Origin: Octopus sinensis
Taxonomy: Eukaryota
Length of the DNA: 64,000 nt
Assembly: GCF_006345805.1 (NCBI RefSeq)
Contig: NC_043000.1
Span: 157,046,001-157,110,000, forward strand
Direction: 5' to 3'
Translations under genes and position numbers: made by a program
Part shown: one piece after another, positions 2,537 to 56,904 of the stretch
Numbering within the stretch: the stretch's first letter is position 1
Layout: each line of letters starts with the position of its first letter
The notes under the pieces: generated by a model
What the model saw: the letters and a program-made list of their open reading frames with translations, nothing else
Databases searched by the model: none
Told to the model about the DNA's origin: nothing

Positions 2537-2765
2537 GGCGGCGAGCTGGCAGAATCGTTAGCACGCCGGGCGAAATGCGTAGCCGTATTTCGTCTGCCAT
2601 TACGTTCTGGGTTCAAATTCTGCCGAGGTCGACTTTGCCTTTCATCCTTTCGGGGTCGATAAATTAAGTACCAGTTACGCACTGGGGTCGATATAATCGA
2701 CTTAATCCGTTCGTCTGTCCTTGTTTGTCCCCTGTGTTTAGCCCGTTGTGGGTAGTAAAGAAATA
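2537..2765 (+). mobile_element. SINE family B monomer
   Basis: Head GGCGGCGAGCTGGCAGAATCGTTAGC, B-box-like GTTCAAATTC, central GCCTTTCATCCTTTCGGGGTCGATAAA. Flanked by the direct repeat ATATTTTTTGTTGTTTGG (TSD). Confidence 0.9.
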
Positions 2766-4987: not shown

Positions 4988-5810
4988 GAATTTCTTTATT
5001 GGCCGCAATGGCCGGACACAAAACAAATGGGGACGATACAATACAAGGGACAAGCGGGATGTTGAACAATGGCGTGTATACAATAAATAAGAAAAACGTT
5101 AACAAAATAATTAAACAATATAAAAAATTCACCCAAAAGAGGGAGTTCCTCTCCGGGACCACGGAGGAACCCCACACATTCTGGTTATTCCGACCGTCAG
5201 ATGAATGTCAATAGGCACCTCTCACCTTCTCACCTCCTCCGGTTTACAAATTAAAGTTAAGAGCAGGCCCATTCACACGGGCCATCCTCGTCACATTCAC
5301 CTACCTTTCAACAAATTTACTGGGGTGGGATGGGGTGTGTTGGCGGTATGAAGAACTTCCCACTCTAGTCTCACCTTCCTTTTCAAGTGAAACTTGAACA
5401 AGTCGATGAGGGCTTGGCCGAAGAGGAAAGCATCTGTCTTAAGTCCTTACAATCTCGTCCACCACACTACCTCATTCGCAATAGCCACCAGGCGGAGGAA
5501 CACTGCCTTTCCTTCCCGGCCAAAGAAAGTCGGCAGGGCGATCTTCACAATGGACTCGGCTGATAACCGGATCCGTCCTACACGTGACAACAGCTGTTTG
5601 ACAAAGCTCCACAAGTCAATAATGCACAGACACTGGACGATTGCATGCAGTTTCGTCGCCCAGCGCACGCTTCGTGCAGGTCTGTCTCACAGCACTTCCG
5701 TGTCTGTAGAGATTGTCTCGAACCGGCAGAGCTCCCCGTTAGTACTGCCAGACCAGGAATTTCTGGAATTATCCATAGGCCCGGCCCGAAAGTCCCCCAG
5801 AAAAGACCAG
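4988..5810 (-). mobile_element. L1/Tx1-like LINE 3' fragment (ORF2 C-terminus and 3' UTR) ending in an (ATT)n tract
   Basis: Translation LHAIVQC..DLWSFVKQLLSRVGRIRLSAESIVKI..EVVWWTRL..FKFHLKRKVRLE resembles the L1/Tx1 C-terminal region. The 3' end is GGCCAATAAAGAAA. Clade assignment is from recall. Confidence 0.65.
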
Positions 5811-8865: not shown

Positions 8866-8914
<49 letters not shown>

Positions 8915-8916
<2 letters not shown>

Positions 8917-9056
8917 TTTTTTTTCTCAATCACTTTTGATCGGAATTTTACTTTTTTTTTCTTATTTTTCTTCTTTTTTTCATTTTCGAAAAGGAAAGCT
9001 CTATATTTGTATTTGTCCCCTCTGTGTTCAGCCCTGCGTGGCCAATAAAGAAAGTT
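8915..9056 (+). mobile_element. 5'-truncated LINE 3' UTR remnant inside a (CTAT)n tract
   Basis: Ends TTGTCCCCTCTGTGTTCAGCCCTGCGTGGCCAATAAAGAAA, the same tail type as 4988 and 42340. Flanked by CTAT repeats. Confidence 0.55.
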
Positions 9057-10818: not shown

Positions 10819-11229
10819 ACTAAGCAAAGTCGCTCACGTGTGCTACTGCTTATGTGTAGCTACAAACTGCCCTTCTCCACTCGACACCGAGCTTGCCTGA
10901 TGAGGAAGATTATTAGAAATCCAGCAGAACAAAAAGTAACAACGCCTGTCTAAATAACGTATAAGCGCAACGTGGAGGTCAACGACCATTTAGCAATTGC
11001 GCAGGAACACAGAGATACTCATCATATTGAATAAGCGCACTGCAAAACTGTTCCTGTTACATCTCTCTAGGAGACGGACACTCTGATATAGAGCTTGAGG
11101 ATCGCTTAACTCCAACCCTTTAGCTGCTCTACTTCAACACTCAGGAAGTTATGCGATTAAACCATTCCCACAAACACTAATACTTCAACTGCTTAGGAGT
11201 ACATTCAAGACGAACCATTCCCAGTAACC

Positions 11230-11828
11230 TATTTCTTTATTACCCACAAGGGGCTAAACACAGAGGGGACAAACAAGGACAGACATAGGTATTAAGTCGA
11301 TTACATCGACCCCAGTGTGTGACTGGTACTTAATTTATTGACCCCGATAGGATGAAAGGCAAAGTCGACCTCGGCGGAATTTGAACTCAGAACGTAACGG
11401 CAGACGAAATACCTATTTCTTTACTGCCCACAACGGGCTAAACATAGAAGGGACAAACAAGGACAGACATAGGTATTAAGTCGATTACATCGACCCCAGT
11501 GCGTAGCTGGTACTTAATTTATCGACCCCGAAAGGATGAAAGGCAAAGTCGACCTCGGCGGAATTTGAACTCAGAACGTAACGGCAGACGAAATACCTAT
11601 TTCTTTACTGCCCACAACGGGCTAAACATAGAAGGGACAAACAAGGACAGACATAGGTATTAAGTCGATTACATCGACCCCAGTGCGTAACTGGTACTTA
11701 ATTTATCGACCCCGAAAGGATGAAAGGCAAAGTCGACCTCGGCGGAATTTGAACTCACAACGTAACGCAGACGAAATACCGCTAAGCATTTCGCCGGCGT
11801 GCTAACGTTTCTGCCAGCTCGCCGCCTT
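11230..11828 (-). mobile_element. SINE-B trimer (one head plus 3 x ~184-bp units)
   Basis: Units start at 11230, 11414 and 11598. TSD ATT(C/T)CCAGTAACC at 11217-11229 and 11829-11841. Confidence 0.92.
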
Positions 11829-12419
11829 ATTTCCAGTAACCATTTCCAGTAACCATTATACGTACATGCGTGTGTAAGAGGATTGGAATCATGACGAGGA
11901 CCCCTGATTTAACCTATATAGCGTCTTCTCACACTTGTGAGGGTTTGATTTCATGATTCTTAAAATACATAGTTCGTTAACCTATGCGTTATAACACCAT
12001 TATCATTTCACTATTTTGTGTAATTTAACCATTTTTCACATTCCTTAATATATTGTGTAACATCTCTAAGCCTCCCCTTGTTTTGTATAACTTTGTTGCA
12101 CATCCCAACACGTGTCTTTGAAGCTGCTTTGTATGTATGAATAGTCTCTGATTAATTGTATGCATAAATTTGCTTTGATGTTAAATATGTTTGAATAGGC
12201 CCTGATGTTAAATAAATTAAATAATAATAATAATTATTATTATTATTCTAGCTGGCAGAATCGTCAGCGCGCCAAGCGAAAAGTTTAGAGACATTTTGAT
12301 CGTCTTTACCTTCCGAATTCAAATTCCGCCGAGGTCGACTTTGCCTTTCATCTACTTGTGCATCTCTAGGTATGGCAATATTTAGGATCTAAGTCTCCTT
12401 CATCATTTTCTCACCTACG

Positions 12420-31019: not shown

Positions 31020-31880
31020 CACCTAAAATTGAGGCTAGTAAACTATTATATCATGCCAGTTATCCTCTACGGAGTAGAAATTTGGACAATGTATATATAT
31101 TTCTTTATTGCCCACAAAGGGCTAAACATAGAGGGGACAAACAAGGACAGACAAACGGATTAAGTCGATTACATCGACCCCAGTGCGAAGCTGGTACTTT
31201 ATTTATCGACACCGAAAGGATGAAAGGCAAAGTCGACCTCGGCGGAATTTGAACTCAGAACGTAATGACAGACGAAATACCTATTTCTTTACTACCCACA
31301 AGGGGCTAAACACAGAGAGGACAAACAAGGACAGACAAACGGATTAAGTCGATTATATCGACCCCAGTGCGTAACTGGTACTTAATTTATCGACCTCGAA
31401 AGGATGAAAGGCAAAGTCGATCCTCGGCGGAATTTGAACTCAGAACGTAACGGCAGACGAAATACTGCAAAGCATTTCGCCCGGCGTGCTAACGTTTCTG
31501 CCAGCTCGCCGCCTTATCGACAATGTATATAGCCATGAGAAGAAGACAGAAGCTTTTAAGGTGTGAATATTTTTCAGGATGGCTAGGATAAGCAGGAAAT
31601 GTAGGTTAACAAACAAAGTAGTTGTAGAAACGTTGAAATTTCAAAGACACCTATTGTTGGGAATGAAATATAAAACACTATTATATTATGAACATAGTGT
31701 TCTATGAGTCATAGTCCAAGACCACCCTGATAGGAAGTGTGGAAGGGAAGAAAGCAAGAAGCTGTCAAAAGCTTTTGCGGACTGAGGACATCAAAGAATG
31801 AACTTAAAACAGGAACCTGGCTGATTGTATGAATACAGTACAAGACAGAAGGAATTAGGGAATCTTGGCAAGCCAATCCC
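31020..31880 (+). mobile_element. Decayed RTE-clade LINE C-terminal fragment, interrupted by a SINE-B dimer
   Basis: YYIMPVILYGVEIWTM before the SINE; EAFKV*IF..RMARIS after it. Confidence 0.65.
31098..31515 (-). mobile_element. SINE-B dimer
   Basis: Units start at 31098 and 31282. TSD GACAATGTATATA at 31085-31097 and 31519-31531. Confidence 0.92.
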
Positions 31881-32252: not shown

Positions 32253-32468
32253 ATTTCTTTACTACCCACAAGAGGCTAAACACAGAAGGGACAAACAAGG
32301 ACAGACAAACGGATTACGTCGACCCCAGTGCGTAACTGGTACTTAATTTATCGACCCCGAAAGGATGAAAGGCAAAGTCGACCTCGGCGGAATTTGAACT
32401 CAGAACGTAACGGCAGACGAAATACAGCTACGCATTTCGCCCAGCGTGCTGACGTTTCTGCCAGCTCG
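32253..32468 (-). mobile_element. SINE-B monomer
   Basis: Flanked by the TSD ATTATATTTCGATAATA. Confidence 0.9.
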
Positions 32469-42279: not shown

Positions 42280-42330
<51 letters not shown>

Positions 42331-42339
42331 TATTATTAT

Positions 42340-42620
42340 AGCCAGTGTGAAAGCGCCTGAAGGCCAGATGGAATGAAGGGGAGAGGGTATCTATCTCAGG
42401 TGCCTTTGGTGTTAGGGGTCCACAGTGTGTGAGGTTCCTTTGGTCACCTCTCAGTGGAACTCCCCCCAATATTAGGAAAGTATATTGTTGGTTTAATCTC
42501 TTTGCTGTGTTTTATTATTCTTTTTTTTTTGCTGTTTACACGTTTAACTTCACTGTCCCTCGTGTGTGTATCTTCCTTTATGTTTTTTGTTCGGCCCTGG
42601 TGGCCAATAAAGAAAGTATT
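42340..42620 (+). mobile_element. L1/Tx1-like 3' UTR remnant within (ATT)n
   Basis: GTGTGAGGTTCCT..GGAACTCCC..GGCCAATAAAGAAAG is homologous to the reverse complement of 4990-5180. Confidence 0.65.
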
Positions 42621-42669
42621 ATCATTATTATTATTATTATGCAAGAAGTCATCATTATTATTATCATTT

Positions 42670-43056
42670 AAGGTGGTGAGCTGGCAGAAACGTTAGCGTG
42701 CCGGGCGAAATGCTTAGCGGTATTTGTCTGCTGCTACGTTCTGAGTTCAAATTCCGCCGAGGTTGACTTTGCCTTTCATCCTTTCGGGGTCGATTAAAGA
42801 AGTACCAGTTATGCACTGGGGTCGATATAATCGACTTAATCTGTTTGTCTGTCCTTGTTTGTCCCCTCTGTGTTTAGCCCCTTGTGGGTAGTAAAGAATA
42901 GAAATAGGTATTTCGCCCGTCTTCGTGTTCTGAGTCCAAATTGCGCCGAGGTCGACTTTCCCTTTCATCCTTTCTGGGTCGATAAAAATAACTACCAGTT
43001 GAGCACTGGGGTTGGTGTAATCGACTTACCTTTCCCCCGAGATTGCTGCCCTTGTA
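42670..43056 (+). mobile_element. SINE-B composite: young unit joined to an older-subfamily unit at the same junction
   Basis: GAAATA|GGTATTTCG at 42901-42915. The second unit has the old-type tail. Confidence 0.85.
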
Positions 43057-43088
43057 ACATATATACACACACACACACGCACACACAT

Positions 43089-43136
<48 letters not shown>

Positions 43137-43683
43137 GTATTTATATTTATCGCCATATCAATATGGGTATTCGACATTAGTAACCGTCTTTAACCCCAGG
43201 AAGAGCCTCCTCCAGCTGGTTATCAATGCATTCTGCACCCGAGAGAGAGAGAGAGAGAGTGAGTGAGAGAAAGAGTGAGAGAGAGGGAGGGAGGGGAGAG
43301 AGGAGGAGAGAAAGAGAGCACATATGGATATCAACAACATAGGTAGGACAAATCTGCAGAGGATTGCTCAGCATGTTAAATACAATATATACGATATAGG
43401 TAATTGAGAAATATATAGCAAAGAACTTTGATTGGGATTAGCCATGCAATTAGTATGCAAAAAAACTTTCTAGCCTGGAACTTTTGAAATATGAAAACCT
43501 TCAAACAAGGGAGACGACTCAAATAATATAATCTAACACAATGTTTTTTGCAAGGTTAAGACGTTCTAGATGGGAACGAATCTTGTATATCCTAAGTTTT
43601 ATGGTTCTTGCTGTTGTTGACGTCGATGTTGTTGTCGTTGTTCTTGTTGTCCTTCGGACCACCTTTTAATATAGCCTAGTTTA

Positions 43684-44115
43684 ACGCAGCGAGCTGGTAA
43701 AATCGTTAGCACGCCGGACAAAATGCTTAGCGGTATTTCGTCTGCCGCTACGTTCTGAGTTCAAATTCCGCCGCGGTCGACTTAGACTTTCATCCTTTTG
43801 GGGTCGATAAATTAAGTACCAGTTACGCACCGGGATCGATGTAATCGACTTAATCCCTTTGTCTGTCCTTGTTTGTCCTCTCTGAGTTTAGCCCCTTGTG
43901 GGCAATAAAGAAATGAGGATCGTTAGCACGCTGGAAAAAAGTTCTTAACGGCATTTCGTTCGTCTTTTCGTTCTGAGTGCAAATTCCACCGAAATAGACT
44001 TTGTCGTTCATCCTTTCAGAGTCAATAAAATAAGTACCATTTTAGCACTGTGCTTGACGTAATCGACTTTCCTCAGCCTCTCGAAATTGCTGGCCTTTCA
44101 CCGAAATTTGAAACC
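43684..44115 (+). mobile_element. Two adjacent or nested SINE-B copies
   Basis: A young copy to 43914 is followed by a diverged copy starting ATCGTTAGCACG. Confidence 0.8.
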
Positions 44116-44786
44116 GATATATCAGCACCATTTGAGCTGACCTATACTTAAAGGCATTACAGTCACGTGTATTCCGCCCACTTTCTCTCTGTTGGGGGAA
44201 CGGTGCAGAAAAGCGGACATGCTGGATCTAAAGATACAACATTTCATCCGATGCGCCCCACCTTATTCTTATTGTCATATAACGGGTATGATTTTAGCGA
44301 GAATTAACTATGATTTCCAGCGGATCGAGAGATTACGCAGATTGTTCTTCATTGACACAATGTTACTGTTGTTGGTGCTGTTATTGTTTTTGGTGCAGCT
44401 GACATTGTGGATCTGCTGATAAGGGAGTTGGTGTTACAATGCTGACGATAACGGTGACGCAATACCGCAGCTCTCGTTTCTGTTGTTGGTTTGTTGTTGT
44501 TGTTGTTATGGTGGTGGTGGTGGTGGTGGTGGTGGTGGTGGTAGCATAGACTATTCTTGCTGCTGCTGTAATTGTTTTGAACTTCTGCTATTGTTTATAT
44601 TGCTGCTTTGAATAGTTCAGCTTTCATTTATACATTTATCTTCCTATTTTTGTTTTGTTTTGTGTTGTGTTTGTATATAATTTAGTCGAAATAGGAAGGG
44701 CAATAACCATGACAATTTTAGGAGGAAATAGACTGAGTTATGCTCGGACCGAAATCCTGTGAACTTTGCTAAAGACACCGAAGTGG

Positions 44787-50273: not shown

Positions 50274-50505
50274 AAGGCGGCGAGCTGGCAGAAACGTTAG
50301 CGCGCCGGGCGGAATGCTTAGCGCTATTTCGTCTGTCGTTACATTCTGAGTTCAAATTCCGCCGAGGTCGACATTGCCTTTCATCCTTTCGGGGTCGATA
50401 AATAAAAGTACCAGTTTCGCACTGGGGTCGATGTAATCGACTTAATCCCTTTGTCTGTCCTTGTTTGTCCTCTCTATGTTTAGCCCCTTGTGGGCAATAA
50501 AGAAA
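50274..50505 (+). mobile_element. SINE-B monomer
   Basis: Full head through to GGGCAATAAAGAAATA. Confidence 0.9.
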
Positions 50506-51320
50506 TATATATACATGTATGTGGGGTTACCTGGCTTAGTGTTTAGGATGTTGAACACGTGATCGTAAACTTGTGTTTCCGATTCCTGGACCAGGAGATG
50601 CGTTTGTGCCCTTGAGCAAAACATTTCATTACACGTCGCTCCAGTTCACTCAATTGACAAAAATGAGTAATCCTTCAATGGACTGGTGTCTCGACCAGAG
50701 GGGAATATATAAGCCACGGAAACCAGAAAATCCGCTTTTACGATCCCGTGATTTGGGAAGGAATTTTGGTCCTTTTGTTGATATGTATGATATGTATGTA
50801 AAATAAAAATGATATATTCATATTTGCACATATTTGTTGGATGGCCGTTGACTACTCATGAATTCCTCCGCCCTTTGACTGCTCTTAGTTTTCGTCCCGC
50901 AGGGTGTCCAACAATCGCCCTCCTCATCAAGAAAGCCTAGTGGTGTTGCCACTTTATTCACCGATGACCCGACTATGCAACAGCTTGTGACAGACCATGC
51001 CTTTCTTTTGCTAGGTTCCAATGCGGATCCCTGAAAAAACGAGCCTCCTCCAACTACTCTGCCTATATATCTGTGCACACATTTTAATGCCGTATATGCC
51101 ATAAGGTCTGCAAATCTAATGGGGTCCTCAAACGACATTTTAAGATCCACAAAGATCAGAACTTAACTGCAGATCTTGGTGGTCCAAATCAGATATGCAA
51201 TCTATGTGGGTGTCTTTTCAAAACATTGTCTGATTTGAAAAGCCGTACCAAGCGCCATGTTAGATCTAAGATGTTAGTACAAGAGGTGGCCAGACTCTGC
51301 ATAAGGAGTACACAACCACC

Positions 51321-54756: not shown

Positions 54757-55922
54757 ATTTACTCTGGTAATCCGCTCAATACGTGGCTTTATGTCAAATT
54801 TACAAAGTAATATTTGTAGTTGATACACATGTTTAAGGTTCTTGCAGAGTGTTGTTGGTTATTATCGTTGTTTAACGTCAGGTCAGCCTACCAGACCATA
54901 GGGAAAATAGAAAACTTCTCAAGCCTCAAGCTCTCTGATTTACCAGTTTACCAGTGAGTAACAGTTATGTCATTATCCCAACATTTAACCAGTCGAATAT
55001 CTGAAGCCCATACAACAAACAATACAAGAAAAGAATATTCAGTGCCCATCCACAAACAAGCATGCCTCATATAATCTTTTCAAAACATCACTAAACTTGT
55101 CGAATTGTACCTTTGTATCTACCCTTCACTGATTCATCGGTCCATGTCTGTACATTTCGCGCGGATCTTTAAATAACAACTAGCAAGCTATGCTCTACTA
55201 ATTTGTATTTACGGACCTTAGGCGAAAAGCCAATGGTACTAACTCTACTCCCTTACATTAAACAATATTAATAAACATTCTTTTTTAATGTTAAGTACTT
55301 CATAACTGTTATTCCAGTGACTCATCCGAATGTTGCTTTCTGTTTGTCTTTTCTTGGGTTTTCCAACTTACTGGTCTTTACAGTGTCCGCCACTTCGGTA
55401 AATTCTATTACAAGTGTTTATCACAACCAGTGTTTGTTCAATGTTTTAGTCGCTACAGGATAAAGACAAAGATCTGAGAAACCGAGTACACAATTGTAGT
55501 TGTTGTTGCTGTCGTTTTTATTGTTGTGATTGTTGTTCTTGTCGTTTAACCACGTCTACTCTGGTTGAACAAACATATGATCAAAGGAATTCTAACTCAG
55601 TTTATCCTGTAACTTTTTTTCCAGGCACTGTGCAACCAGAACATCAATGTCCTATTTCCCCAACAGTAGGGTTGTTTGAATTTAGGGATATTTGGTTGCT
55701 TTTCAGGCAGGTGTACATTTTATATTTTCTTAGAAGGGAGGATGGTTGTTGCTATTATTGTCATCGTCACCGTTGTTATTATTAAGCCCCACCCCAGCCA
55801 ACATCAAACTGCTCCATAATCAAAGTTGCTCCAGCATGGCAGTTTCGTTATTGCAGTTTGCCTCAGATTCAATTACCCAGTACGTGTTTCGGTGATTTGA
55901 GAACTATGTAACTGCTATTTCT

Positions 55923-56511
55923 TATTTCTTTATTGCCCACAAGGGGCTCAAAATAGAGGGGACAAACAAGGACAGACAAACGGATTAAGTCGATTACTTC
56001 GACCCCAGTGCGTGACTGGTACTTAATTTATCGACCCTGAAAGGACGAAAGGCAAAGTGGACCTCGGCGGAATTTGAACTTCGAACGTAGCGGTAGACGA
56101 AATACCTATTTCTTTACTACCCACAAGGGGCTAAACGTAGAGGGGACAAACAAGTACAGACAAACGGATTAAGACGATTATATCGACCCCAGTGCGTAAC
56201 TGGTATTTATTTAATCGATCCCGAAAGGATGAAAGGCAAAGTCGACCTCGGCTCAGAACGTAACGGTAGACAAAATACCTATTTCTTTACTACCCACAAG
56301 GGGCTAAACGTAGAGGGGACAAACAAATACAGACAAACGGATTAAGTCGATTACATCGATCCCAGTGCGTCACTGGTACTTAATTTATCGACCCCGAAAG
56401 GATGAAAGGTAAAGCCAACCTCGGCGGAATTTGAACTCAGAACGCAGCGGCGGACGAAATACCACAAAGCATTTCGCCCGGTGTGCTAACGTTTCTGCCA
56501 GCTCGCCGCCT
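55923..56511 (-). mobile_element. SINE-B trimer
   Basis: Units start at 55923, 56107 and 56280. TSD ATGT(A/G)ACTGCTATTTCT at 55906-55922 and 56514-56530. Confidence 0.92.
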
Positions 56512-56904
56512 ACATGTGACTGCTATTTCTATCAGATCGAACGAGTGAGTAATAGTTCTCTTTCACAATTACAATTCAGAGTTGTAGCATTCAATACTTT
56601 CCTCGAACGATTAGTGTAGTGAAAGTCAAGGTATTGCAACCAATAATCCTATATCGATCAATGAAGCTATCTAGCGGGAACATATAGGTGTGTCGTGCAA
56701 CTGTTGCATGAGTTCGATACGAAGGTAAATGCGTGAAACAATCAATAAACAACGTTTTAAACGAAATGGTGTTAAATGTCGTGAAGATTACTCTATGAAG
56801 CTATAAAGAAAAATGTATATCATTCATTACATGCATATGTGTATATGTGTATTTATATGCGTGGGATGTGTATGTAGGTGAATGTATATATATAACATAT
56901 ACAT

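What the first reader, a model, noticed from the sequence alone, without database searches (positions are those of the whole stretch)
11230..11828. SINE-B forms head-to-tail multimers with a nucleotide-identical junction at four independent loci
Seen: trimers at 11230-11828 and 55923-56511, a dimer at 31098-31515 and a composite at 42670-43056. In element orientation all six junctions join the 3' end (..GAAATA) to GGTATTTC(G) (one unit has a single substitution). That site lies about 48 nt into the head, in the loop of the hairpin CGAAATGC-TTAGCG-GTATTTCG. The unit is 184 bp, only the first unit has the head, and three arrays are bounded by a single 13-17-bp TSD. The junction is itself a mini-palindrome (GAAATA-GG-TATTTC), so the RNA 3' end could pair next to the joining site. 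Inference: this reflects a multimeric master copy, RT template-jumping between RNAs cleaved in the anticodon-like loop, a ~184-nt circular RNA intermediate, or self-targeted insertion. I do not know of a description of this for octopus SINEs.
Basis: partly seen in the sequence, partly recalled or inferred. Interest (0 to 1): 0.8.

Follow-up and report, generated by a model that had tools for sequence, protein, structure and literature searches.

The report
SINE that homes into itself
A young LINE retrotransposon in this octopus-type genome inserts almost only at one base inside the head of a common short repeat (SINE), and that SINE, which shares the LINE's tail and so likely borrows its enzymes, has piled up inside its own and older sister copies at the same base, leaving about 40,000 identical head-to-tail junctions.

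Summary
The exact junction occurs 40,480 times genome-wide (reversed control 0).

It marks a DNA target site. A 5.35-kb L1/Tx1-type LINE shares the SINE's 3' tail, has intact ORFs in some copies, and sits at SINE position 49/50 in 53 of 54 distinct copies read, with a ~16-bp target duplication.

The arrays were built by later insertion into resident SINEs. Terminal units of older sister families are as diverged as their monomers, while the upstream units are young (47 pairs, p=4e-5). No terminal unit shares its neighbour's haplotype (0 of 34). Because the incoming SINE is homologous to its target, the duplication is absorbed and the new unit looks headless.

An RNA read-through that pairs with the nick is likely but inferred. 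Junctions are 99% G although about 40% of heads carry C, and flanks at unique sites mirror each tail variant's junction.

A circle or a fixed multimeric master is disfavoured as the general cause. This is a new variant of the known Tx1/SINE target-specific systems, a closed self-homing loop, not found in ten literature searches.

The parts
11598..11828 (-). Trimer 1: head-bearing SINE-B unit (bases 1-233)
11414..11597 (-). Trimer 1: headless 184-bp unit; near-identical to the head unit (1.2% apart, 2 shared rare variants), so same template or local duplication
11230..11413 (-). Trimer 1: terminal 184-bp unit, different haplotype (6% from its neighbour); inferred original resident element
11217..11229 (.). 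TSD copy at the 3' end of trimer 1 (partner 11829-11841; a third copy follows at 11842-11854)
11829..11841 (.). TSD copy at the 5' end of trimer 1
11770..11792 (-). Head hairpin holding the target site, base 49/50 (GCTTAGC|GGTATTTCG); A-box/D-loop-like
56280..56511 (-). Trimer 2: head-bearing unit
56107..56279 (-). Trimer 2: headless unit, 173 bp (11-bp deletion)
55923..56106 (-). Trimer 2: terminal unit with the CAA-type tail, different haplotype; 17-bp TSD at 55906-55922 and 56514-56530
31282..31515 (-). Dimer: head-bearing unit
31098..31281 (-). Dimer: terminal 184-bp unit, CAA-type tail; 13-bp TSD at 31085-31097 and 31519-31531
42670..42906 (+). Heteromer: SINE-B unit ending AAAGAATAGAAATA
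42907..43056 (+). Heteromer: headless, truncated unit of an older sister SINE (A1-like tail), starting at base 50
43683..44115 (+).
2537..2764 (+). SINE-B monomer
32253..32468 (-). SINE-B monomer
50274..50506 (+). SINE-B monomer
8914..9053 (+). 3' end of a sister LINE family with a related tail. The SINE-targeting LINE itself is not in the window; the nearest copy read lies about 2.5 Mb away on the same contig (L215).

Best explanation
The arrays are likely built by repeated target-primed insertion of SINE-B into base 49/50 of the head of SINEs already in the genome, using the enzymes of an L1/Tx1-type LINE that itself sits at that base. Steps: (1) Shown: a 5.35-kb LINE with SINE-B's tail occupies base 49/50 with a ~16-bp duplication (bases 50-65). 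(2) Inferred: its APE endonuclease nicks there and its RT also copies SINE-B RNA, recognised by the shared tail. (3) Shown as a pattern, mechanism inferred: the SINE cDNA is homologous to the target, so its 3' end anneals to the target's own head and the duplication is absorbed. The result is one head + a 184-bp unit + the old element, inside the old element's TSD, with the crossover anywhere from about base 45 to about 95. (4) Inferred: each product is a complete SINE gene with no TTTT terminator, so it would read through the junction; the RNA extension GGUAUUUCG would pair with the nicked primer at any other G50 head, a positive feedback. (5) Shown for a minority of inner units: runs of near-identical units, from re-copying one RNA or from local duplication.
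For: LINE at base 49/50 in 30 of 30 best hits to its 3' end, with a query that had no flank, and in 29 of 30 tails taken in genome order, the 30th with a 7-nt slip at the same site. Six loci overlap, so 53 of 54 distinct copies are exact. Of 20 copies read at both ends, 20 have SINE sequence up to about base 65 upstream, base 50 (12 G, 8 C) agrees on both sides in 20, and 19 are full length. ORF1 has zf-CCHC; ORF2 has APE + RT + zf-RVT. SINE-B TSDs start within 1 base of GAAATA in 40 of 49 and are mostly 13-21 bp, mode 16-17. Only B tails form headless junctions: 136 of 255, against 0 of 110 sister-family tails. Terminal A1/A2/A3 units are as diverged as their monomers (0.097/0.099/0.058 vs 0.116/0.085/0.064), while the B unit upstream is young (0.038 vs 0.070, 47 pairs, p=4e-5). 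Target-type bases appear in the upstream unit: column 65 in 13 of 66 vs 3 of 118 (p=1.4e-4), and rare variants in bases 51-72 are shared 12 times vs 2.0 shuffled. L014 repeats private variants from base 50 to about 95. L053 and C4:282265 show a full-length B with a visible duplication. 14 of 30 unbiased A3 tails carry a B unit. Enrichment is about 150-fold over equal use of GGTW sites (15 loci vs 6). For RNA pairing: junctions with C50 number 432 vs 40,480 with G50, while heads are 19,364 C vs 28,491 G. 18 of 19 C50-headed arrays have a G-starting junction (14 of the 19 came from loci picked on a G junction, and 4 of the 5 unbiased ones are G). Unique-site flanks start with GG after 22 of 55 TAR tails and 0 of 30 CAA tails (p=1e-5), mirroring the base-50 (TAR 114 of 123) and base-17 (CAR 12 of 15) junctions. 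The trimer has no TTTT.
Against: No empty-site allele was shown. The LINE family read is small (169 exact tails) and younger (mostly <1.5% apart) than the bulk of SINE-B (3-4%). It ends GAAATT with a CAA-type tail, whereas base-50 SINE junctions mostly have TAR tails, so the enzyme that made most junctions may have been an older relative. The LINE uses C50 heads freely (16 of 30) and its main young clade hits both bases (11 G, 4 C), so its own targeting is not simply RNA-templated. Over half of unbiased B ends (30 of 56) are at unique TAT/GAT/GGT/AGA sites, so SINE specificity is partial. In B-B arrays the age gap is small (p=0.010, p=0.057). 26 of 56 inner pairs are near-identical at diagnostic columns, which one-by-one homing alone does not explain. 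Family yardsticks may inflate A-family divergence through subfamily structure.
Confidence: 0.78

Rival explanations
1. Endonuclease-only targeting by several partner LINEs. SINE tail variants were carried by different or successive Tx1-like LINEs, each with its own site (base 50, base 17, TATC-type microsatellite). RNA read-through plays no part, and C50 heads are simply younger than most junctions.
For: Sister LINE families with related tails sit at fixed sites of other repeats. The LINE hits G50 and C50 alike. GGTA at unique sites is present in both TSD copies, so it is target sequence.
Against: No base-17-specific LINE was seen (not searched for directly). Off-target GG sites share only GGT(A) with the head site. 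Terminal A3 units carry B-type base 65 in 12 of 27 vs 1 of 18 monomers (p=0.006), which suggests pairing or copying beyond the nick. One TSD (L045) has target C but G in the 3' copy. This differs from the best explanation only in step 4.
Confidence: 0.3
2. Single-event chimeras: the RT starts on one SINE RNA at a new site and jumps by homology to the read-through end of other SINE RNAs, or copies a multimeric master, so that all units arrive together.
For: One TSD bounds each array. Heads often match the first unit rather than the last. Some inner runs share a haplotype (L034, L057).
Against: Old A1/A2 terminal units next to young B units (11 of 13 older). Private target mutations duplicated into the upstream unit. 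Visible duplications around full-length B and around the LINE. No recurring first/last haplotype pairing (0 of 34 identical, mean 4.3 differences vs 4.9 random).
Confidence: 0.12
3. A 184-nt circular RNA, made by cleavage in the head loop and ligation, is copied in rolling-circle fashion (retrozyme-like).
For: Fixed junction, a hairpin across the junction, and 17 of 56 inner pairs identical at 10 diagnostic columns.
Against: It cannot supply the head or heteromers. Terminal units always differ from their neighbours. No Rfam match at E<=10 over the trimer. The LINE shows the same position without any such RNA.
Confidence: 0.04
4. DNA-level tandem duplication or unequal crossover, or assembly error.
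For: A few adjacent units are 0.6-2.4% apart and share private variants.
Against: There is no homology at the breakpoint to create the first dimer. Most adjacent units are 5-15% apart. The same junction lies at tens of thousands of unrelated loci. Only one family's tail does it. It explains secondary expansion only.
Confidence: 0.03

Closest known systems
SINEU with Tx1-Mar LINEs in crocodilians (Kojima 2015, PMC4494074; passages read)
   Same: A Tx1-type LINE and the SINE it is thought to mobilise share a preference for one site in a dispersed repeat. Tandem SINEU-3 copies arise by sequential insertion and sandwich a TSD. The paper notes that co-transcription with target sequence can strengthen targeting.
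   Different: The target there is a third element (the Mariner-N4 DNA transposon), units keep their heads, and the TSD stays visible. Here the target is the SINE's own head, so units lose the head, the TSD is absorbed, and each product is itself a potential source gene and target.
Tx1L in Tx1D (Xenopus), Keno (U2 snRNA), Kibi/Koshi (microsatellites) (as summarised in PMC4494074)
   Same: L1-superfamily LINE with APE endonuclease and sequence-specific insertion.
   Different: The target is a dispersed SINE head at an A-box-like GG; 19 of 20 copies read are full length.
R2/R1/SART1 site-specific LINEs (PMC6895275 passages; PMC7265360 passages)
   Same: cDNA pairing with upstream target forms the 5' junction and favours full-length inserts (R2). 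Downstream target sequence in the RNA anneals to the nick and sharpens priming (R1Bm, SART1Bm).
   Different: Their targets are rDNA or telomeres and the element is autonomous. Here the same two pairings would act for a non-autonomous SINE whose target is itself.
Tandem B2, Dip and Ves SINEs (Vassetzky 2021, PMC8466645; passages)
   Same: A large share of copies (up to 49% for Dip) lie in head-to-tail multimers of up to eight, including mixed families.
   Different: Those units are described as full length (PMC10702118); for B2 the authors leave open insertion into the tail or dimeric templates. There is no fixed internal site and no headless unit.
SINE-derived satellites of squamates (PMC10702118; passages)
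   Same: Tandem repeats of part of a SINE with SINE ends on both sides.
   Different: Attributed mainly to duplication by recombination at the locus. Here units are mostly of independent origin and age.
Retrozymes (PMC11722881, PMC4209133; search listing only; mechanism recalled)
   Same: Tandem short non-coding retroelement units with fixed junctions.
   Different: No ribozyme match, and units are not copies of one template.

Membership tests
tRNA-derived SINE | Short, non-coding, interspersed, high copy, bounded by TSDs | tested here: met
   233 bp, 132,833 exact 3' ends, TSD found in 49 of 71
tRNA-derived SINE | 3' tail shared with a partner LINE | tested here: met
   about 81% over the last 42 nt
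tRNA-derived SINE | tRNA-related head with A and B boxes | tested here: inconclusive
   No ARAGORN or Rfam hit. Weak alignment to own tRNA-Lys covering the A- and B-box motifs, z 3.5, best of 20 distinct tRNAs.
tRNA-derived SINE | Transcribed by RNA polymerase III | not testable with these tools
   needs RNA data or an assay
Nin-DC SINE superfamily / octopus OK, OR1, OR2 families | Central domain matches Nin-DC; identity to the named families | not tested
   Resemblance is recalled only; no reference sequence came from a call (searches give names only).
Tx1-clade target-specific LINE (partner) | ORF1 with CCHC knuckle; ORF2 with APE endonuclease, RT and C-terminal zinc finger | tested here: met
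   both ORFs open (520 and 1134 aa) in 3 of 20 copies
Tx1-clade target-specific LINE (partner) | Sequence-specific insertion (above 20% of flanks in one target, the criterion in PMC4494074) | tested here: met
   53 of 54 distinct copies exact
Tx1-clade target-specific LINE (partner) | RT groups with named Tx1 elements in a tree | tested here: inconclusive
   Best named homolog is annotated Transposon TX1 149 kDa protein, E 2e-90; best PDB match is human L1 ORF2p, E 2e-64. No tree with reference clades was built.
Tx1-clade target-specific LINE (partner) | Endonuclease cleaves the target in vitro | not testable with these tools
   bench test
SINEU/Tx1-Mar system | SINE and Tx1 LINE share one target site | tested here: met
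SINEU/Tx1-Mar system | U1/U2 snRNA head; target is a Mariner DNA transposon | tested here: not met
   no Rfam match; the target is the SINE head
Retrozyme / circular-RNA retroelement | Self-cleaving ribozyme in the unit | tested here: not met
   0 Rfam matches at E<=10; an undescribed ribozyme is not excluded
Retrozyme / circular-RNA retroelement | Units of an array copied from one template | tested here: not met
   0 of 34 terminal pairs identical; true only for some inner pairs
Dimeric SINE from a multimeric master (Alu type) | Fixed arms of equal age that move as one unit | tested here: not met
   1 to 10 units and four terminal families

The most novel reading that the evidence does not exclude
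A closed, RNA-guided self-homing loop in an animal genome. The SINE is mobilised by a LINE whose endonuclease cuts the SINE's own promoter. Every homing event makes a new source gene whose read-through RNA is the guide for the next. The incoming cDNA overwrites old heads, rejuvenating dead sister SINEs. A compensatory head variant (T45.G50 to G45-C50, 41 of 155 B heads) keeps the hairpin but largely escapes SINE homing, while the youngest LINE clade still hits it. The same LINE lineage has radiated onto several other octopus repeats, giving a natural panel of active site-specific APE integrases.
Probability: 0.5. Interest if true: 0.87.

Novelty: new variant of a known kind. Interest (0 to 1): 0.72.

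Why it matters
It explains a genome-wide structure with one target site: about 30% of the 3' ends of a major octopus SINE family are such junctions. It shows a route by which SINEs recombine with and overwrite each other during retrotransposition, which bears on how SINE heads, bodies and tails get shuffled and on repeat-age estimates, since arrays mix ages. It supplies a very young, apparently intact LINE with near-perfect specificity for a dispersed site and mostly full-length inserts. That makes a tractable system for testing how APE-type LINEs choose targets and form 5' junctions, and a candidate site-specific gene-insertion tool.

Tried and rejected
(1) Empty-allele test: laying contigs of four public runs on L014:4776-5385 was swamped by paralogous SINE contigs (73,000-219,000 laid per run, no piece spanning the stretch), so no verdict.
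(2) No RNA holder was listed for window 42300-44300, so there is no evidence on expression.
(3) Rfam and ARAGORN found nothing.
(4) Monomer fold z = -2.3. In the one fold of the tail plus read-through, the junction palindrome did not form; the read-through paired with an upstream stretch instead.
(5) The idea that GGTA at unique sites is added from the RNA was rejected: it is in both TSD copies.
(6) Strict RNA memory of target base in the LINE was not supported for the main clade (11 G, 4 C), though one sub-lineage is 5 of 5 C (p=0.008).
(7) Head typing by regular expression was too noisy and was replaced by alignment.
(8) The A2/A3 split is unreliable, so only the pooled 110 is used.
(9) Earlier-findings look-ups by words on SINE multimers and by the SINE sequence gave nothing.
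(10) The R1Bm paper was not held; it is cited only through PMC7265360.
(11) I first suspected a Dong/R4 or RTE partner; the domain architecture rules that out for this LINE.

Full report
1. OBSERVATION. The four loci are as described: two trimers, a dimer and a composite, with six junctions GAAATA|GGTATTT, 184-bp units (one 173 bp), a single head and, for three arrays, one 13-17-bp TSD. The window lies in a 2.72-Gb genome. The junction 18-mer has 40,480 exact matches (reversed control 0), against 132,833 exact 3' ends of the family. In an unbiased 464-kb stretch around the window, 56 3' ends split into 30 at unique flanks, 17 at base 50 plus 4 near-exact, 3 at base 17, and 2 before a full head. 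Of 38 B-containing elements there, 20 are monomers, 9 dimers, 6 trimers, 2 tetramers and 1 has seven units. Arrays of 10 occur in loci picked on the junction. The join is at base 49/50 of a 233-nt monomer; a second site at base 17 has 3,472 exact matches.

2. FOUR SISTER FAMILIES. The head and body (bases 1-169) are shared by four families that differ in tail. Their divergence from their own column majority at 69 stable non-CpG columns is A1 0.116, A2 0.085, A3 0.064 and B 0.031 (monomers). Only B tails are followed by a headless unit (136 of 255, a set enriched by my targeting, against 0 of 110 A tails). The terminal unit of an array is often A-type: 14 of 30 A3 tails taken in genome order carry at least one B unit upstream, and in many of these loci one TSD spans the whole heteromer.

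3. THE UNITS DID NOT ARRIVE TOGETHER. At 10 diagnostic columns, a terminal B unit is never identical to its neighbour (0 of 34; mean 4.3 differences vs 4.9 for random pairs). Inner pairs are bimodal, 26 of 56 having 0-1 differences. In heteromers the terminal A unit is as old as A monomers and the B unit upstream is as young as B monomers (0.070 vs 0.038, 47 pairs, p=4e-5). In B-B arrays the same trend is weak (p=0.010; p=0.057). Upstream units carry target sequence just past the junction position: the A-type base at column 65 in 13 of 66 B units of A1/A3-ended arrays vs 3 of 118 otherwise, and 12 rare variants in bases 51-72 shared with the terminal unit vs 2.0 in shuffles (69 pairs). L014 repeats private mutations over bases 50-95. 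L053 and C4:282265 show a nearly full-length B inside an old A element with a visible duplication. This is what insertion into a resident element gives when the incoming cDNA is homologous to the target.

4. THE AGENT. A search for relatives of the B tail found LINE 3' ends. One locus (L171+L011) shows SINE head 2-65, a 5.4-kb LINE, then the SINE from base 50, with an outer TSD around everything. Querying the genome with the last 408 bases of that LINE, without flank, gave 486 candidates, 40 scored and 30 fetched; all 30 end at base 50 of a SINE. A pattern for the tail has 169 exact matches; of the first 30, 29 end at base 50 and one has a 7-nt slip at the same site. Six loci are in both sets, so 53 of 54 distinct copies are exact. 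I read both ends of 20 of the 30 best hits: 20 have SINE sequence to about base 65 upstream, base 50 agrees on both sides in all (12 G, 8 C), 19 are full length, and 3 have both ORFs open. Base 63 differs between the two duplicate copies in 7 of 19, and two loci share a variant only in the 5' copy, so the end of the 5' copy may come from the LINE RNA (inference). ORF1 has a CCHC knuckle; ORF2 has APE, RT and zf-RVT. Its best solved relative is human L1 ORF2p and its best named homolog is annotated Transposon TX1. Fifteen of 20 copies form a star with branches down to 0.02%, so the family is likely active. SINE-B TSDs begin at the first base after GAAATA (offset 0 in 25, within 1 base in 40, of 49 found among 71 elements) and peak at 16-17 bp, matching the LINE's stagger.

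5. IS THE SINE RNA A GUIDE? The trimer has no TTTT, so a pol III transcript would run through the junction (established pol III behaviour; transcription not shown). Three patterns fit pairing of that extension with the nicked primer. (a) About 40% of exact heads carry C at base 50 (19,364 vs 28,491) and the LINE uses them in 16 of 30, yet SINE junctions with C are 432 vs 40,480. (b) At unique sites the first target bases mirror the junction typical of that tail variant: GG after 22 of 55 TAR tails and 0 of 30 CAA tails; AG after 8 of 30 CAA and 3 of 55 TAR. (c) Terminal A3 units have the B-type base 65 in 12 of 27 vs 1 of 18 monomers. Heads are often imported: 18 of 19 C50-headed arrays have a G-starting junction, including four on A3 targets, a family with no C50 heads in the sample. 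Fourteen of the 19 were picked on a G junction; 4 of the 5 unbiased ones are G. The C50 head co-varies with G45 (TG 80, GC 41 of 155 B heads), a compensatory pair in the head hairpin. The rival, several partner LINEs with different endonucleases plus a late origin of C50, explains much of this too: sister LINE families do target other repeats. I put the RNA-guide step at about 0.6 given the rest.

6. WHAT THE SITE IS. The best of 20 distinct own tRNAs aligns GCTTAGCGGTA with the D-arm GCTCAGTCGGTA of tRNA-Lys and the downstream motif with its B box (weak, z 3.5). The cut would thus fall before the conserved GG of an A box, not in an anticodon loop. A SINE insertion restores A box and B box in the first unit; a LINE insertion separates them.

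7. AGAINST, AND NOT SHOWN. No empty allele, no RNA and no enzyme assay. The LINE copies read are younger and fewer than the SINE junctions and carry the CAA-type tail, while base-50 junctions are mostly TAR; a few older LINE tails (L231, L245, L247, L248) also sit at base 50. More than half of B insertions are off target. Runs of near-identical inner units need a second process (re-priming on one RNA through its terminal redundancy, or local duplication); some pairs share private mutations and look like DNA duplications.

8. LITERATURE. Ten full-text searches found no description of this octopus system or of a SINE homing into its own head by way of its partner LINE. The library lacks most subscription papers, Repbase and Dfam. 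Read as passages: PMC4494074, PMC8466645, PMC10702118, PMC4758252, PMC3747384, PMC3531059, PMC7265360, PMC6895275. PMC13282606, the 2026 O. vulgaris repeat annotation, was read in parts 1-2 of 3, the main text: it lists 13 recently active L1-Tx1 families and SINEs at 11.6% of that genome but says nothing on targets or multimers; its supplement and deposited library were not seen and could hold these families. Ohshima and Okada 1994 on octopus SINEs was seen only as a reference line. Earlier notes of this scan report Tx1-like LINEs at fixed SINE sites in other genomes (unchecked), so a LINE targeting a SINE is recurrent. What is distinctive here is the closed loop and its scale.

9. VERDICT. 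A real, genome-wide feature. The best explanation is targeted retrotransposition into SINE heads by a Tx1-type machinery with an absorbed TSD (0.78). New variant of a known kind; interest 0.72.

Noticed in passing
L302-L318 (for example L307, L317; about 400 bases past the match start): A sister LINE family ending TATGAAATAAAG sits at one fixed base of a different tRNA-type SINE in 11 of the 16 rows printed for these loci (the others show no readable 3' end or are rearranged): a second SINE-targeting family.
   Followed up: partly
L294-L301: An old LINE family whose tail has the longest match to the SINE-B tail is followed in 8 of 8 loci by what looks like the same unidentified dispersed repeat (7 printed at the tail, one row mis-anchored).
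   Followed up: partly
L060:1-1870; window 8914-9053 (+); window 42590-42620 (+): Further LINE relatives with the related tail end in TATC/TATT-type simple repeats, matching the TAT/GAT class of SINE-B target sites.
   Followed up: partly
L154:1197 and L170:1596: SINE-B monomers inserted in antisense into other SINE copies at the same GGTACTTAATTT site: a possible third recurrent site.
   Followed up: no
G000 C4 stretch 123063 (L133), array hB-hB-hB-hB: Four full-headed units separated by GGTA, three sharing an internal deletion: a tandem of a different type.
   Followed up: no
window 11829-11857: The 13-bp TSD of trimer 1 is present twice on the 5' side, three copies in all.
   Followed up: no
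SINE head bases 45 and 50: Compensatory change T.G to G-C in the head hairpin, only in family B (41 of 155 B heads, 0 in A1-A3); a possible escape from self-insertion.
   Followed up: partly
window 5354-5805 (-): Fragment of a Tx1-like LINE (73% to the L060 family).
   Followed up: no
L049:7593-8228 and L012:8265-8867: Mariner-type transposase ORF fragments (PF17906, PF01359).
   Followed up: no
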